Assembly: GCF_000026545.1 (NCBI RefSeq) | Contig: NC_011601.1 | Reading direction: 5' to 3' (one strand) | Source of the DNA: Escherichia coli O127:H6 str. E2348/69 | GTDB lineage: Bacteria > Pseudomonadota > Gammaproteobacteria > Enterobacterales > Enterobacteriaceae | DNA: 64,000 nt | Shown here: one piece after another, positions 9,001 to 15,000 of the stretch | Numbering within the stretch: position 1 is the first letter of the stretch | Layout of the letters: each line of letters begins with the position of its first letter | Program-made: the position numbers

Positions 9001-12000
9001 GTTGTCAGGGCGGCGTCGCCGTCAGATCTTGCGGAAAAGCTGACACATAAACTGAAAGAGGGCTGGCAGCCGTTTGGTAGTCCGGTGGCCATAACCCCTT
9101 ATACCCTGATGCAGGCGATTGCAGCAGAAGGTGATGTGGTCGTCAGTGGTGCAACTGAGCCAGAGTGGTACTACGTCATCGTACTGGCCGGGCAATCCAA
9201 TGCCATGGCTTACGGTGAAGGGCTTCCGCTTCCGGATTCATACGATGCGCCCCATCCGCGCATTAAGCAACTGGCCCGTCGTAACACAGTGACTCCCGGT
9301 GGTGAAGTATGCGTATTTAACGACATCATTCCTGCTGACCATTGTCTGCATGATGTTCAGGATATGAGTACGATTAACCATCCCCGGGCTGACCTGAGCA
9401 AAGGGCAGTACGGCTGTGTCGGACAGGGCTTACATATTGCCAAAAAACTGCTTCCGTATATCCCTAATAATGCGGGGATCCTGCTGGTACCATGCTGTCG
9501 TGGTGGTTCGGCATTCACCCAGGGCACGGAGGGGACATTCAGCGAGTCCACGGGGGCCAGTCAGGATTCGGCTCGCTGGGGAGTGGGTAAGCCGTTATAT
9601 CAGGATCTGCTTTTCCGCACGAAGGCAGCATTGCAGAAAAACCCGAAAAACGTTTTGCTGGCGATATGCTGGATGCAGGGGGAATTCGATATGACGAATG
9701 CCAGTTACGCCCAGCAGCCAGCAGCATTTCTTGCAATGGTACAGCAGTTCCGTGCTGACTTTGCCGGGCTGGCGGCGCAGTGTCACGGTGGAAGTCCGGC
9801 ATCAGTCCCCTGGATTTGTGGCGACACGACATACGCGTGGAAACAAGAACACGGTACGCAATATGAAGTGGTATATGGTGCATATAAAGGTAAAGAATCC
9901 CAGCAGATTTATTTTGTTCCCTTTATGACCGATGGTAGCGGAGTTAATACACCGACAAACAACCCGTCAGAAGATCCTGATATTGCCGGGTCTGGTTATT
10001 ACGGTTCGGCATCCCGAACGAACAAAAACTGGGTATCATCAAATCGCCCGACGCATTTCAGCTCATGGGCGCGTCGTGGCATTATTCCCGATCGTATGGC
10101 AACTGCTATTCTGAACGTAGCCGGTCGCACCTTAGCCTTCATTAGTGGTAAGGCACCGGAAATCAAACCCTCGCCCGGCGGCGACACGCCATCGGGGCCG
10201 TCTGAAGATGCATCCGTACGCACAATCTCCCTGTTGCCGACAGCCGGAGATGCTGCTGCGCAGGGCTGGAGCATTAAGAATGGCGGAATTCAGTTGTCAG
10301 ATGGTGTATTTAAGATCACCAAGCAGAGCAATAAAACCTGGTCCCTGATGCATCCGGTGGATGACGCAATTACCCTGCTGACACAGGGCGGCAGACTGAC
10401 CTGTAAGTTCCGCCTCTCAGGCGCACTGACCAACAATCAGTTCGGGCTGGGGATTTATCTGTATACGGACGCTCCCGTTCCTGATGATGTGGCGATGACG
10501 GGTACTGGTAATCCGTTCCTGATGTCTTACTTCACTCAGACCACTGACGGCAGAGTGAATCTGATGCATCACAGGAAAGCCGGAAACACGAAGCTGGGGG
10601 AGTTCGGCGATTACGGTAACGACTGGCAGACGCTGGAGCTGGTGTTCACCGCCGGCAGTGCCACGGTTACTCCGAAACTGAATGGAGTGGCTGGCCCGGC
10701 ATTCCAGGTTATAAAAGACAGTCTGACACTGGGACTGAATGCGCTGACGCTGACGGATGTTACAAAAAATGCAGCGTATGGCGTTGAGATAGAAAGTCTG
10801 GTGCTGGAGATAAATGCACCGGCAGCATAATAAAAAAAGCCAGCGCCCACTCTGAAGGACGCTGGCTAAAACGGGTAGATGTACTTCACATGATACTTAT
10901 ACTTGGCAGTACATTTTCTGACAGACAGTGACGGATGTTGTCAAGATATTGTGTCATTTATAACCTGAATCAGGGGTTGGCCGGAATGTTATCTGGCATT
11001 TTTAGCAGAGCCTGAATGCCATAATCACGGCTCCCGGCGTTGGCCGTCAGTGGGTGACACTGGCGGCTTTTTTGTGCACAGAAAACCCCCAGCTAGGCTC
11101 TGTCTCTTATACACAAATCCCCACCCGGGGATTTGTGATGTCTGTCAGTCTGCTTTAGGGGGACTCTTTCCATCCGGTAGTTTCCTTCCTCCCCGGCAGC
11201 GATTTTTTGAACTTTTTCCTCACCCGTTGATCTTCTCTTATATTTCATTTTCTTCGGGTCTGTTATGGTACTTTCTGATTGTTATTCATGGGCTAACGAG
11301 CAGTTTGGACATGCCCGTCTCGGTGATCCGCGTCGTACACGACGCCTTGTGTCACTGGCCTCTTCTCTCGCTCAGCATGCAGGTCTTTCTATTGTGAAAT
11401 CATCCCAGTCCACTGCTCAGGTTGAAGGTGCGTACCGCCTGATACGTAACCCGTCTGTGTCCCCGCAAGCCATTGCCGAAGCCGGATTTACCGCCACTGT
11501 AAGGGCATGTGAGGCTCATCCGCTGCTCCTCGCGCTGGAAGACACCACCACCATTAACTTCAGTCACAGTACGGCATCTGATGACCTGGGGAATACCACC
11601 ACTAACCCGAAGACGCGCGGGCTGCTGGCTCACTCTGTCCTGATGTACGCCCCCGACAGCGCCCTGCCAGTCGGTCTTATCGAACAGCAGCGCTGGAGTC
11701 GTGCCACGGACACCTACGGTGTTAAGCACCAGCGAAAAGAACGTCCCTATGAAGAAAAAGAAAGTTACCGCTGGCAGCAGGCTTCGGAGCGCATGGCCGA
11801 ACGGCTGGGGGAGATACAGAAACGGGTAATCACTGTCTGTGACCGGGAAGCGGATATCTGGCATTACCTGCATTATAAAGTCAGCCACGGGCAGCGCTTC
11901 GTGGTGCGTGCAGCACAGAATCGCCGGCTGGAAGAAGCACCCGGCAAGCTCTTCGAACTGCCGGAAGTCCTGGCAACCGCGGGAAGCCACACGCTGAATG

Positions 12001-15000
12001 TGATGCAAAAAGGCGGGCGGGCAGCCCGCCAGGCCCGGATGTTCATCAGTTACAGCGAAGTCAGCATAAAAAATCCCGACAACAGCGGCCAGGCGCTCCC
12101 GCTCACGTATGTCTGTTGCCGGGAGCAGGCAGAGGACGGCGCCTGCTGGCATCTGCTGACGTCAGAAAAAGTGGCGAGTGCCGCCGATGCGCGACGTATC
12201 GTCAGCCATTACGAGCGACGCTGGCTGATAGAGGAATACCACAAGGCGTGGAAAAGTGGTGGTACATGTGTGGAATCGCTGCGAATGCAGACCCGGGATA
12301 ACCTCGAGCGCATGGTGGTTATCAAGGCGTTTATCGCGGTGCGGGTGCTGGGCCTGCGGCAGGGCGGTATCAGTGAAGAAACACAAAATGACAGCTGTGA
12401 GAAAATACTGACGCCGACAGAGTGGAAACTGCTGTGGGTTAAGCTGGAAGGAAAACCGCTTCCGTCACAGATGCCGACACTGAAATGGGCCTGTCTGAAA
12501 CTGGCGAAACTGGGGCGATGGCATGACAGCAAACGCACCGGTCGCCCCGGTTGGGTAGTCATGTGGGATGGCTGGTTCAGACTTCAGGATATGGTTGAGG
12601 GTTACCTGGTGATGAAGTCTCTTGATCAGGAGATCTGATCAAGAGACAGAGCTAGGCTGGGGGTTCCGGAAAGCTTTCAGCTTTGAGCCAGTTATTAAAA
12701 CCCCTTTTGATTTGTTAAAACACCTTGCGGTCTGGCAACTGCAAGTGTCAAACAAGAAATCAAAAGGGGGTCCCAATGGGGAACGAAAAGAGCTTAGCGC
12801 ACACCCGATGGAACTGTAAATATCACATAGTATTTGCGCCAAAATACCGAAGACAGGTGTTCTACAGAGAGAAGCGTAGAGCAATAGGCTGTATTTTGAG
12901 AAAGCTGTGTGAGTGGAAAAGTGTACGGATTCTGGAAGCTGAATGCTGTGCAGATCATATCCATATGCTTGTGGAGATCCCGCCCAAAATGAGCGTATCC
13001 GGCTTTATGGGATATCTGAAAGGGAAAAGCAGTCTGATGCTTTACGAGCAGTTTGGTGATTTGAAATTCAAGTACAGGAACAGGGAGTTCTGGTGCAGAG
13101 GGTATTACGTCGATACGGTGGGTAAGAACACGGCGAAGATACAGGATTACATAAAGCACCAGCTTGAAGAGGATAAAATGGGAGAGCAGTTATCGATTCC
13201 CTATCCGGGCAGCCCGTTTACGGGCCGTAAGTAACGAAGTTGGATGCAAATGTCAGATCGTGTGCGCCTGTTAGGGCGCGGCTGGTAAGAGAGCCTTATA
13301 GGCGCATTTGAAAAACCTCCGGCTATGCCGGAGGATATTTATTGTTTTTCTTTACTTTCATTTTCTGTCGGCGGTGACGGAGACATACATCAGATGGAAA
13401 AAATCACAACAGGTGTGTCATACACCACGTCAGCGGTGGGGACGGGATACTGGTTACTGCAGCTGCTGGACAAAGTCTCTCCGTCCCAGTGGGTGGCAAT
13501 AGGTGTGCTGGGGAGTCTGCTGTTTGGCCTGCTGACGTATCTGACAAACCTTTATTTCAAGATTAAAGAAGATAAGCGCAAGGCTGCGAGAGGTGAATAA
13601 TGCCTCCATCATTACGAAAAGCCGTTGCTGCTGCTATTGGTGGTGGGGCTGTTGCCATAGCGTCTGTGCTCATCACTGGTCCGAGTGGTGACGATGGCCT
13701 GGAAGGTGTCAGCTACATACCATACGAAGATATCGTTGGCGTATGGACTGTATGTCACGGACACACCGGAAAAGACATCATGCCCGGTAAAACGTATACC
13801 GAAGCAGAATGCAAAGCCCTCCTGAATAAAGACCTTGCCACGGTCGCCAGACAAATAAACCCGTACATCAACGTCGATATACCGGAAACAACGCGCGGCG
13901 CTCTTTACTCGTTCGTTTACAACGTGGGCGCTGGCAATTTCAGAACATCGACGCTTCTTCGCAAAATAAACCAGGGCGATATCAAAGGCGCATGTGATCA
14001 GCTACGGCGCTGGACATACGCTGGCGGTAAGCAATGGAAAGGGCTGATGACTCGCCGTGAGATTGAGCGTGAAGTCTGTTTGTGGGGGCAACAATGAGCA
14101 GAGTAACCGCGATTATCTACGTTCTGGTTATTTGCCTCATCGTTTGCCTTTCATGGGCTGTTAATCATTACCGTGATAACGCCATCGCCTACAAAGAGCA
14201 GCGCGATAAAGCCACATCCATCATCGCTGATATGCAGAAGCGGCAACGTGATGTAGCAGAACTTGACGCCAGATACACAAAGGAGCTTGCTGATGCTAAT
14301 GCGACTATCGAAAGTCTCCGTGCTGATGTTTCTGCTGGGCGTAAGCGCCTGCAAGTCGCCGCCACCTGTGCAAAGTCAACGACCGGAGCCAGCGGCATGG
14401 GCAATGGAGAAACCCCAGGACTTACAGCAGATGCTGAACTCAATTATTACCGTCTCCGAAGTGGAATCGACAGGATAACCGCGCAGGTTAACTACTTGCA
14501 GGAGTACATTAGGACGCAATGCCTTCGATGATAGCGATAATTTTCCCATTATCTTTCATATGCGTGATTTTAGTTAGTTTTAGTCGCAACACGAATAAAA
14601 CAGAGAACCACCCGCTATACGAGTGGTTCTGATTTACACTTTTGAAACTAAAAGCTAAATACTTGAGCAAGAACAGCTAACGCTGCGCAAAAAGCAGCCC
14701 GTTTATTCCATTTACTTTGTATTTCAATGGCTTTAAAACAACCCAGTGATGAGAAACTGCCTTGTTCCGTTTTTGGTGGGTGTTCTTTGGAAGATGCAAA
14801 ACATGAAATAATCCAAAAAATGGCGGAAAAAATTCCAAAAATTATTGAAGGCAAATGATGCTCTTTCAAAAACTCCATGACTTAACTCTCTTAAAAGTTG
14901 CTAAACATCGCTCGCAAACAAGAAAGAAAAGTTCTGTTGCGAGCACTCCACAATTTAAACGCCACACAAGCAGCTATTAGGTGGACGGTTCCAAGATTGC

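What the first reader, a model, noticed from the sequence alone, without database searches (positions are those of the whole stretch)
10831..13340. Back-to-back IS50-like and IS200 insertions between the esterase gene and the lysis cassette
An IS4-family element whose 19-bp ends are close matches to the Tn5 outside and inside ends (with a longer ~23-bp inverted repeat) is followed within ~20 bp by an IS200 with its hairpin ends. Both sit in the late operon just upstream of the holin and may block late read-through into the lysis genes.
Basis: partly seen in the sequence, partly recalled or inferred. Interest (0 to 1): 0.4.

Follow-up and report, generated by a model that had tools for sequence, protein, structure and literature searches.

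The report
ISEc13 nested inside IS200C in prophage
Two already catalogued jumping genes sit upstream of the lysis genes of a defective E. coli E2348/69 prophage, but they are nested rather than side by side: the Tn5-like ISEc13 has landed in the loop of the left-end hairpin of IS200C, a spot it hits repeatedly.

Summary
The window is E. coli E2348/69 (NZ_CP059840.2), in a defective lambdoid prophage. Both elements are real and are annotated in RefSeq as ISEc13 (IS4 family, Tn5/IS50-like) and IS200C.

**What holds.** ISEc13 spans 11100-12649 (1550 bp). Its ends match the Tn5 outside end 17/19 and the inside end 19/19. Its transposase is a full-length Tn5 transposase homologue.

**What does not hold.** The elements are nested, not back-to-back. 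IS200C (711 bp) starts at about 11073, upstream of ISEc13. ISEc13 sits in the loop of the IS200C left-end hairpin (CCCCCAGC-TAG-GCTGGGGG), with a 9-bp duplication AGCTAGGCT.

**Order of events.** Phages 434 and 2B8 show the empty site. One chicken strain has IS200C alone at the same site. IS200C therefore came first, landing in the T-run of a native terminator about 50 bp upstream of holin S.

**Recurrence.** The same ISEc13-in-hairpin insertion occurs at two other E2348/69 loci, one of them inverted, and in three other lineages. Ten distinct ISEc13 sites give a target CCYCY-N8/9-RGRGG.

**Lysis block.** Untested. It looks unlikely given a Q-type antiterminator and a pre-existing terminator, and it is largely moot because the prophage is defective.

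Ordinary overall; the target preference is the only modestly new point.

The parts
11042..11075 (+). Native phage intrinsic terminator (hairpin 11042-11068 plus T-run) upstream of holin S. This is the target of the IS200C insertion.
   Evidence: Terminator scan. Annotated as a terminator in phage 434. DNA fold -10.8 kcal/mol, z -6.0. The empty site in 434 and 2B8 reads GGCGGCTTTTTTGT|TTTTCTT.
11073..11099 (+). IS200C left-end fragment: nt 1-27, comprising the left arm and loop of the left-end hairpin. Boundary uncertain by about 3 nt.
   Evidence: 100% identical to the IS200C left end at L003, L006 and L007. The hairpin occupies nt 12-34 of IS200 according to PMC4513863, which places nt 1 at 11073.
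11091..11099 (.). Left copy of the 9-bp target-site duplication AGCTAGGCT made by ISEc13.
   Evidence: Intact IS200C has a single copy (L003).
11100..12649 (+). ISEc13 (IS4 family, IS50/Tn5-like), 1550 bp. Left end 11100-11118, right end 12631-12649.
   Evidence: 100% identical over 1550 bp to annotated ISEc13 copies; about 30 places in E2348/69. Ends match the Tn5 OE 17/19 and IE 19/19.
11265..12638 (+). ISEc13 transposase gene (457 aa), apparently intact.
   Evidence: NCBIfam NF033590 IS4 transposase, 514 bits against a cut-off of 160. Pfam Tnp_DNA_bind and DDE_Tnp_1. Full-length match to Tn5 transposase structures, E 6e-84, with the EDTT, CDREADI and RWxIEExHKAWK motifs conserved.
12650..12658 (.). 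Right copy of the 9-bp target-site duplication AGCTAGGCT.
12650..13342 (+). Remainder of IS200C: right arm of the left-end hairpin, 5'UTR stem-loop, tnpA and the right-end hairpin. Right boundary uncertain by about 3 nt.
   Evidence: 100% identical to the IS200C copies at L006 and L007, and 98.8% to L003. The insertion is 2270 bp relative to the empty site, of which 711 bp is IS200C.
12643..12766 (+). IS200 5' region matched by the Rfam STnc490 model. Its first stem-loop, the left-end hairpin, is broken here.
   Evidence: RF01405 scores 116.9 bits here, with non-standard pairs in stem 1, against 146.4 bits in intact IS200C.
12776..13234 (+). IS200C tnpA (Y1/HUH transposase, 152 aa).
   Evidence: PF01797 E 1.7e-37. 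NF033573, 145.9 bits. Matches solved IS200/IS605-family TnpA structures. RefSeq names it IS200C.
13316..13334 (+). IS200C right-end subterminal hairpin CCTCCGGC-TAT-GCCGGAGG.
   Evidence: -10 kcal/mol, z -4.2. It fits the ISEc13 target motif with N9 spacing.
13394..14531 (+). Intact lysis cassette downstream (context): pinholin S 13394-13600, SAR endolysin R 13600-14097, spanin Rz 14094-14531 with embedded Rz1 14263-14478.
   Evidence: Pfam Phage_holin_2_1 and Phage_lysozyme. ORF list. RefSeq annotation.

Best explanation
Two sequential transposition events produced a nested pair of known insertion sequences in a defective lambdoid prophage of E. coli E2348/69.

**Step 1 (shown by comparison).** IS200C is a 711-bp IS200/IS605-family element. 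It inserted, without a duplication, into the T-run just 3' of an intrinsic terminator hairpin, about 50 bp upstream of the holin start codon.

**Step 2 (shown).** ISEc13 is a 1550-bp Tn5/IS50-like IS4-family element. It inserted into the 3-nt loop region of the IS200C left-end hairpin, symmetrically about its dyad, and duplicated 9 bp (AGCTAGGCT).

**Why there (supported by a 10-site sample).** ISEc13 integrates almost only into short palindromic targets of the form CCYCY-N8/9-RGRGG. The IS200 hairpin CCCCC-N9-GGGGG fits this, so IS200 copies are recurrent targets in either orientation.

**Consequences (inferred).**
- The insertion splits the bidirectional terminator and the putative TnpA-binding hairpin of IS200C.
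- It probably separates tnpA from its weak promoter, so this IS200C copy is likely immobile.
- The lysis genes are moved 2.27 kb further from the late promoter but are otherwise intact.
- Q-antiterminated transcription would be expected to read through.
For: **Identity**
- The window equals NZ_CP059840.2 at 100%.
- RefSeq annotates the ISEc13 and IS200C transposases there.
- Pfam, NCBIfam and PDB homology agree.

**Nesting and order of events**
- The empty site is seen in phages 434 and 2B8, and IS200C alone occupies the identical site in strain Z1323CEC0015.
- 27-28 nt of the IS200C left end lie upstream of ISEc13.
- The 9-bp duplication flanks ISEc13.
- The Rfam STnc490 first stem is broken here but intact in L003.

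**Recurrence**
- With strict junction 50-mers, E2348/69 has 2 same-orientation junctions and 1 opposite-orientation junction among 9 IS200C right ends.
- The loci are this prophage, hydN (L006) and trpA-ompW (L007, inverted).
- Remnants of the same junction occur in a plasmid lineage (L008), in a chromosomal lineage (L009) and at the dsdC locus of NU14 (L010). About 300 genomes matched that junction over query positions 12-50, but only NU14 was inspected.

**Target rule**
- In 20 half-sites from 10 distinct sites, C is found at -4 and -2 in 20/20 and a pyrimidine at -1 in 20/20.
- The motif is rare: 0 hits with N8 and 2 hits with N9 in 64 kb.

**Role of the hairpin**
- The IS200 left-end hairpin (nt 12-34) is a bidirectional terminator, and the tnpA transcription start is near nt 40 (PMC4513863).
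- TnpA of this family recognises subterminal hairpins at both ends (PMC3201880 abstract).
Against: - No transcription or transposition data exist for this locus.
- The IS200C boundaries are ambiguous by about 3-4 nt because TTGT is shared by flank and end.
- The ISEc13 sites were sampled from the best BLAST place per record. This is not a complete census, so the target rule could be overstated.
- The duplication is 8 bp at most other sites but 9 bp in IS200. The rule therefore needs flexible spacing, which is unusual for Tn5-like enzymes.
- The IS200C copy in Z1323CEC0015 differs at 8 of 685 positions. Shared descent and independent insertion at the same site cannot be told apart.
- That the left-end hairpin is the TnpA binding site of IS200 itself is extrapolated from IS608.
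Confidence: 0.88

Rival explanations
1. One reading: two independent, adjacent (back-to-back) insertions into phage DNA. On this view the IS4-family element has its own ~23-bp terminal inverted repeats and a complete IS200 begins ~20 bp downstream.
For: tnpA of IS200C and most of its length do lie downstream of ISEc13. A 25-nt, 88% inverted repeat does span the ISEc13 ends (I1).
Against: - The sequence immediately upstream of ISEc13 (11073-11099) is the IS200C left end, 100% identical to other copies.
- It is contiguous with the downstream part in intact IS200C (L003).
- ISEc13 copies elsewhere share only 11100-12649, not the outer 16 nt of the 'long repeat'.
- The outer repeat is the split hairpin plus the duplication.
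Confidence: 0.02
2. The IS200C::ISEc13 composite (2.27 kb) transposed as a single unit, driven by IS200 TnpA, between the hydN locus and the prophage. On this view ISEc13 did not hit IS200C independently at each place.
For: The prophage and hydN composites have the same internal orientation and are 100% identical in both the IS200C and ISEc13 parts. No genome with IS200C alone at hydN appeared among the top rows of a combined-junction search, though that result was confounded by the repeated IS200 part of the query.
Against: - The trpA-ompW copy has ISEc13 inverted at the identical position, which requires an independent hit.
- Other lineages carry the same junction at other loci.
- IS200C alone exists at the prophage site in another strain.
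- Splitting the left-end hairpin should remove the structure that TnpA needs. This is inferred from the family mechanism (PMC3201880).
- All ISEc13 copies in this strain are near-identical, so identity between copies is uninformative.
Confidence: 0.08
3. The nested insertion sequences act as a polar block that silences the S-R-Rz lysis cassette by stopping late transcription.
For: 2.27 kb of foreign DNA with hairpins lies between the esterase gene and S. The right-end hairpin of IS200C followed by a T-rich tail scores as terminator-like on the + strand.
Against: - A stronger native terminator already sits at the insertion point in functional phages such as 434, so expression of S normally depends on antitermination.
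- A Q-family protein (DUF1133; Phage_antitermQ 27.9 bits against a cut-off of 26) is encoded upstream.
- Q-modified polymerase reads through intrinsic and Rho-dependent terminators. This is established lambda biology, not tested here.
- The IS200 left-end terminator is disrupted.
- The prophage has a pseudogenised integrase and a head/tail deletion, so a phage-level phenotype is moot.
Confidence: 0.15

Closest known systems
IS50 / Tn5 (IS4 family, IS50 group); specifically the catalogued element ISEc13
   Same: - The transposase aligns full-length to Tn5 transposase (E 6e-84), with catalytic motifs conserved.
- The right end is 19/19 identical to the Tn5 inside end, including its GATC sites and the transposase stop codon inside the end.
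- The left end is 17/19 to the outside end.
- The duplication here is 9 bp, as in Tn5.
- The element is 100% identical to copies RefSeq names ISEc13.
   Different: - It is not part of a composite transposon.
- Most other copies sampled have 8-bp rather than 9-bp duplications.
- Target choice is far more restricted (CCYCY-N8/9-RGRGG) than the loose Tn5 consensus. The Tn5 comparison is from memory, not tested here.
IS200 of Salmonella/E. coli (IS200/IS605 family); specifically IS200C
   Same: - 711 bp, with a single 152-aa Y1 transposase.
- No terminal inverted repeats and no duplication.
- A left-end hairpin at nt 12-34, a 5'UTR stem-loop (Rfam STnc490) and a right-end hairpin.
   Different: This copy's left-end hairpin is split by a 1559-bp insertion, so its terminator and likely TnpA-binding structure are lost.
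Insertion sequences that target palindromic or hairpin repeats, such as IS1397/ISKpn1 in BIME/REP loops and IS110-family elements in REP (recalled from the literature, not tested here)
   Same: Insertion occurs at the centre of a short GC-rich palindrome, in either orientation, repeatedly at equivalent sites.
   Different: ISEc13 is a Tn5-like DDE element. Its targets are terminator-like CCCCY/RGGGG stems, including another insertion sequence's end, not REP elements.
DLP12 cryptic prophage of E. coli K-12 (essD-rrrD-rzpD lysis cassette with an IS5 insertion in the upstream region; recalled)
   Same: A defective lambdoid prophage retains an intact pinholin/SAR-endolysin/spanin cassette, and an insertion sequence lies between the Q-type gene and the lysis genes. 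RefSeq even names the endolysin here rrrD.
   Different: The insertion sequences differ, the insertion point differs (intergenic, in a terminator), and the structure here is nested.

Membership tests
IS4 family, IS50 group (ISEc13) | DDE transposase with the YREK-type motif and a Tn5-like N-terminal DNA-binding domain | tested here: met
   NF033590, 514 bits against a cut-off of 160. PF14706 E 1.3e-19 and PF01609 E 2.9e-7. Full-length alignment to Tn5 transposase with EDTT, CDREADI and RWxIEExHKAWK conserved. The Tn5 dimerisation domain PF02281 scored 24.1, below its cut-off of 26.7.
IS4 family, IS50 group (ISEc13) | Short terminal inverted repeats related to the Tn5 outside and inside ends | tested here: met
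   Left end 17/19 to the OE, right end 19/19 to the IE. The two ends share a perfect 9-bp CTGTCTCTT.
IS4 family, IS50 group (ISEc13) | Direct target-site duplication flanking the element | tested here: met
   The 9-bp AGCTAGGCT is present at both flanks and occurs once in intact IS200C. At most other ISEc13 sites the duplication is 8 bp.
IS4 family, IS50 group (ISEc13) | Sequence identity to the catalogued ISEc13 | tested here: met
   100% over 1550 bp to copies annotated 'IS4-like element ISEc13 family transposase' in RefSeq. ISfinder itself was not available.
IS200/IS605 family (IS200C) | Y1 (HUH) single-domain transposase TnpA | tested here: met
   PF01797 E 1.7e-37. NF033573, 145.9 bits against a cut-off of 55. 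Hits to IS608 and ISDra2 TnpA structures.
IS200/IS605 family (IS200C) | No terminal inverted repeats and no target duplication; insertion 3' of a short conserved target | tested here: met
   Comparison of empty and filled sites shows a clean insertion with only a 4-nt alignment ambiguity. All five flanks examined end in TTGT after a terminator hairpin and T-run.
IS200/IS605 family (IS200C) | Subterminal hairpins at the left and right ends | tested here: met
   The left-end and right-end hairpins fold at -11.7 and -10 kcal/mol as DNA, with z-scores of -3.3 and -4.2. In this copy the left-end hairpin is interrupted by ISEc13.
IS200/IS605 family (IS200C) | IS200-specific 5' region (terminator hairpin plus an SD-sequestering stem-loop) | tested here: met
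   Rfam RF01405 covers model positions 1-124 of 124 at 116.9 bits (gathering score 56), with stem 1 broken. The description of this region is in PMC4513863.
Adjacent (back-to-back) independent IS insertions | Each element is complete and the two are separated by host or phage DNA | tested here: not met
   The IS200C left end lies on the far side of ISEc13, and no phage DNA lies between them.
Polar insertion blocking a phage late operon | Loss of downstream late transcription | not testable with these tools
   Only sequence context is available: a native terminator, a Q-like gene and a defective prophage.

The most novel reading that the evidence does not exclude
ISEc13 is a highly site-selective Tn5-like element. 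It recognises a palindromic framework CCYCY-N8/9-RGRGG, found in terminator-like hairpins, and sets its cleavage stagger (8 or 9 bp) by the spacing of the arms. Because the IS200 end hairpins fit this framework, ISEc13 repeatedly lands in and probably disables IS200 copies, so one insertion sequence is preferentially inactivated by another. A more speculative extension is that the split hairpin can re-form in single-stranded DNA and the 2.27-kb composite still moves by TnpA.
Probability: 0.45. Interest if true: 0.4.

Novelty: already known. Interest (0 to 1): 0.22.

Why it matters
For the finding as posed, it matters little. Both elements are catalogued, the genome is a well-studied reference strain, the locus is annotated, and the prophage is defective.

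Two points have modest value:
- **Annotation.** The locus is a nested insertion, and the apparent long inverted repeat is an artefact of a palindromic target. Nested insertion sequences like this can mislead end-calling.
- **Target choice.** The small survey suggests ISEc13 has an unusually strict palindromic target, which explains its repeated hits in the IS200 left-end hairpin. If confirmed, that would be a useful natural example of target selectivity in a Tn5-family transposase. It would also be a mechanism by which one insertion sequence limits another.

Tried and rejected
- **First junction 50-mer searches.** These gave inflated counts of 4 and 5 places. The two orientations share 34 nt and the target is nearly palindromic. 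I repeated them with a strict E-value and used those counts (2 and 1).
- **Counting intact IS200C left ends in E2348/69.** I appended a 'unique' sequence to the query. This failed because the tail-gene fragment has paralogues in other prophages. It was replaced by a right-end-plus-27-nt-flank query, which gave 9 copies.
- **Combined simulated 'IS200C-only' junctions for hydN and trpA.** The result was confounded by the repeated IS200 part of the query. The best hit, in CFT073, turned out to be an unrelated sohB-yciN IS200C. The question of composite transposition stays open.
- **Exact-pattern scan of genome contigs with the ISEc13 left end.** It found nothing, so additional sites were taken from E. 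coli genomes instead.
- **Literature.** Searches for ISEc13 returned only resistome and mobilome surveys. The E2348/69 genome paper is not held. No paper was found describing insertion-sequence insertion into the IS200 hairpin.
- **Outward promoter towards S.** The promoter scan found no + strand candidate in the region.

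
Full report
**Where the window comes from.** Window 10600-13700 is 100% identical, over its whole length, to E. coli E2348/69 (EPEC O127:H6) chromosome NZ_CP059840.2, positions 2869018-2872118 on the minus strand. RefSeq annotates, in order:
- a SASA-family carbohydrate esterase
- 'IS4-like element ISEc13 family transposase'
- 'IS200/IS605-like element IS200C family transposase'
- a class II holin, lysozyme RrrD and a lysis protein

**The observation.**
- ORFs of 457 aa (11265-12638) and 152 aa (12776-13234) are present.
- The 457-aa protein scores 514 bits on NCBIfam NF033590 (IS4 transposase, cut-off 160). It carries the Tn5-type DNA-binding and DDE domains.
- It aligns over its full length to Tn5 transposase structures (E 6e-84), with the catalytic-motif regions conserved.
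- The 152-aa protein is a Y1 transposase (PF01797 E 1.7e-37; NF033573, 145.9 bits; IS608 and ISDra2 TnpA structures).
- The IS4-type element runs from 11100 to 12649 (1550 bp). Its left 19 nt match the Tn5 outside end at 17/19 and its right 19 nt match the Tn5 inside end at 19/19.
- The element is 100% identical to ISEc13 copies found about 30 times in E2348/69 and in many other E. coli.

**What is wrong with the description.** Immediately outside ISEc13 lies a perfect 9-bp direct repeat, AGCTAGGCT, at 11091-11099 and 12650-12658. Outside that lie CCCCC on the left and GGGGG on the right. Removing ISEc13 and one repeat copy restores AACCCCCAGC-TAG-GCTGGGGGTT, the left-end hairpin of IS200.

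I aligned the reconstructed sequence with three other records:
- Strain Z1323CEC0015 (L003) carries IS200C alone at exactly this phage site.
- Phages 434 (L004) and 2B8 (L005) carry the empty site.

The alignment shows that IS200C begins about 27 nt upstream of ISEc13 and that the total insertion is 2270 bp. Of this, 711 bp is IS200C, 1550 bp is ISEc13 and 9 bp is the duplication. The 28 nt preceding ISEc13 are 100% identical to the left ends of other IS200C copies.

The Rfam model for the IS200 5' region (STnc490, RF01405) matches 12643-12766. Its first stem is broken and it scores 116.9 bits, against 146.4 bits with an intact stem in L003.

ISEc13 is therefore nested in IS200C, not adjacent to it. 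The '~23-bp inverted repeat' (25 nt, 88%) is the split hairpin, plus the duplication, plus the 9-bp true terminal repeat. The stated start of the finding, 10831, also includes about 240 bp of ordinary phage intergenic DNA.

**Where IS200C landed.**
- The empty site reads GGCGGCTTTTTTGT|TTTTCTT. That is the T-run of an intrinsic terminator (hairpin 11042-11068; DNA fold z -6.0), and phage 434 annotates a terminator there.
- The boundaries are ambiguous by 3-4 nt because TTGT is shared. Taking the published position of the hairpin (nt 12-34 of IS200, PMC4513863) puts nt 1 at 11073 and the end at about 13342, some 50 bp before the S start codon at 13394.
- At five IS200C loci examined, the element sits directly after a terminator-like hairpin, a T-run and TTGT.
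- Only 2 of 5426 E. coli genomes have IS200C at this phage site, and only E2348/69 has ISEc13 in it.

**Recurrence.** Strict junction-specific 50-mers give clean counts in E2348/69. There are two junctions in the orientation seen here and one in the opposite orientation, among nine IS200C right ends. The three loci are:
- this prophage
- the hydN-DUF4259 intergenic region (L006)
- the trpA-ompW region (L007), where ISEc13 is inverted at the identical position with the complementary duplication

Remnants of the same junction occur elsewhere:
- **Plasmid lineage (L008).** A degenerate ISEc13 is flanked by the left half of the left-end hairpin and the right half of the right-end hairpin.
- **Chromosomal lineage typified by CP131_Sichuan (L009).** The element is in reverse orientation and truncated.
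- **dsdC locus of NU14 (L010).** Only the first 50 nt of ISEc13 remain next to an IS200 left end. About 300 genomes matched this junction over query positions 12-50, but only NU14 was inspected.

The presence of both orientations, several loci and several lineages argues for independent hits on a hot spot.

**Why this spot.** I collected flanks of ISEc13 at ten distinct sites. In all 20 half-sites the five bases abutting the duplication follow C-C-Y-C-Y:
- C at -4 and -2 in 20/20
- pyrimidine at -1 in 20/20
- C at -5 in 15/20

This gives a palindromic target, CCYCY-N8-RGRGG. The duplication is 8 bp at most sites and 9 bp in the IS200 hairpin (CCCCC-N9-GGGGG). At one site near tRNA-Pro it is 8 bp in one strain and 9 bp in another.

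The motif is rare. In the 64-kb window there are no N8 matches (0.38 expected) and two N9 matches, one of which is the IS200C right-end hairpin. Many targets are terminator-like stems, for example the ybaY terminator and the ibs loci.

The sample is small. It was drawn from the best BLAST place per record, so it is an indication, not a census.

**Consequences (inferred).**
- According to PMC4513863, the left-end hairpin is a bidirectional terminator that shields IS200 from outside transcription, and tnpA transcription starts near nt 40.
- TnpA enzymes of this family recognise subterminal hairpins at both ends (PMC3201880 abstract).
- Splitting the hairpin by 1.56 kb should abolish the terminator. 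It probably also separates tnpA from upstream promoter elements and removes the left-end structure needed for excision.
- This IS200C copy is therefore most likely immobile. I could not exclude that the composite moved as a unit between hydN and the prophage, because the two composites are identical and in the same orientation. The inverted trpA copy shows that independent insertion does occur.

**The proposed block of late transcription.**
- The lysis cassette is intact: pinholin, SAR endolysin and Rz/Rz1.
- Upstream lies a Q-position gene (window 4935-5477). It is DUF1133 and also passes the Phage_antitermQ threshold (27.9 bits against 26), with a weak match to Q21 structures.
- Functional relatives already carry a terminator at the insertion point, so S expression normally requires antitermination. 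Antiterminated polymerase is expected to traverse the insertion sequences. That expectation comes from established lambda Q biology and is not tested here.
- No + strand promoter-like site was found in the insertion.
- The prophage is clearly defective. The integrase is frameshifted, an IS481-family element is inserted, no immunity or replication genes are annotated between int and hokD, and a truncated S49 protease is fused to an NlpC/P60 fragment, implying loss of most head and tail genes.

The polar-block idea is therefore unsupported and of little consequence, though only transcript measurements could settle it.

**Verdict.** This is a correct spotting of two known, annotated insertion sequences in a reference genome, with the architecture misread. 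It is ordinary as a genomic feature. The only modestly new element is the apparent strict palindromic target preference of ISEc13, which explains its repeated insertion into the IS200 end hairpin.

Noticed in passing
ISEc13 flanks at L011-L018 and L021-L027; window 11084-11099 / 12650-12665: ISEc13 insertion sites share a palindromic framework, CCYCY-N8-RGRGG, in 20/20 half-sites. The duplication is 8 bp at most sites but 9 bp in the IS200 hairpin.
   Followed up: partly
L013 vs L022 (tRNA-Pro-proximal site in two strains): The same target sequence carries ISEc13 with an 8-bp duplication in one strain and a 9-bp duplication in the other. This is either two independent hits with different stagger or a 1-nt homopolymer difference.
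   Followed up: no
window 11112-11137: ISEc13 has a perfect 11-bp subterminal palindrome, CACAAATCCCC-ACCC-GGGGATTTGTG, just inside its left end. It contains a CCCC/GGGG pair reminiscent of its own target arms. Its function is unknown.
   Followed up: no
window 11062-11075; L006, L007, L008, L009 and L020 left flanks: Every IS200C copy examined sits immediately 3' of a terminator-like hairpin, a T-run and TTGT. This suggests a strong preference of IS200C for the tails of intrinsic terminators.
   Followed up: partly
L008 3498-4476 (plasmid of strain M19 and 16 similar plasmids): A degenerate, internally deleted ISEc13 is flanked on the left by the left half of the IS200 left-end hairpin and on the right by the right half of the right-end hairpin. 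This implies hits in both hairpins followed by deletion of the IS200 interior.
   Followed up: partly
L010 2991-3064 (NU14, near dsdC): An IS200 left end, with 4 nt deleted from its A-run, is followed by only the first 50 nt of ISEc13 and then truncated by an IS3-family fragment. About 300 genomes matched this junction over query positions 12-50, but only NU14 was inspected.
   Followed up: partly
window ~20790-21240 (L001 22190-22638): A truncated S49 head protease overlaps a truncated NlpC/P60 tail gene. This deletion junction removes most head and tail genes of the prophage and is seen in full only in E2348/69.
   Followed up: partly
NZ_LT827011.1 and NZ_LT903847.1 (other E2348/69 assemblies): These two sub-lineage assemblies keep the hydN and trpA composites. 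They show no match to the esterase-IS200C-ISEc13 junction of this prophage among the top hits, so the prophage region appears to be missing or altered there. Their genomes are 96-152 kb smaller.
   Followed up: partly
window 13325-13600: The IS200C right end supplies an in-frame upstream ATG at 13325 that lengthens the mechanical S ORF to 91 aa. The annotated holin starts at 13394.
   Followed up: no
window 12643-12766: Rfam STnc490 matches on the tnpA-sense (+) strand and includes the left-end hairpin. PMC4513863 instead describes STnc490/art200 as a 90-nt RNA antisense to the tnpA 5'UTR, so the strand or extent of the Rfam model disagrees with the paper.
   Followed up: no
window ~7238-7487 and ~8384-8719: tRNA-Ile and tRNA-Arg genes and an iraM (anti-adaptor) gene lie between the methyltransferase and the esterase gene in the late region of the prophage.
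   Followed up: no
window 2471-2489: Apart from the IS200C right-end hairpin, this is the only match in the window to the N9 form of the ISEc13 target motif (CCCCTTACTTATCCGGAGG). It is unoccupied.
   Followed up: no
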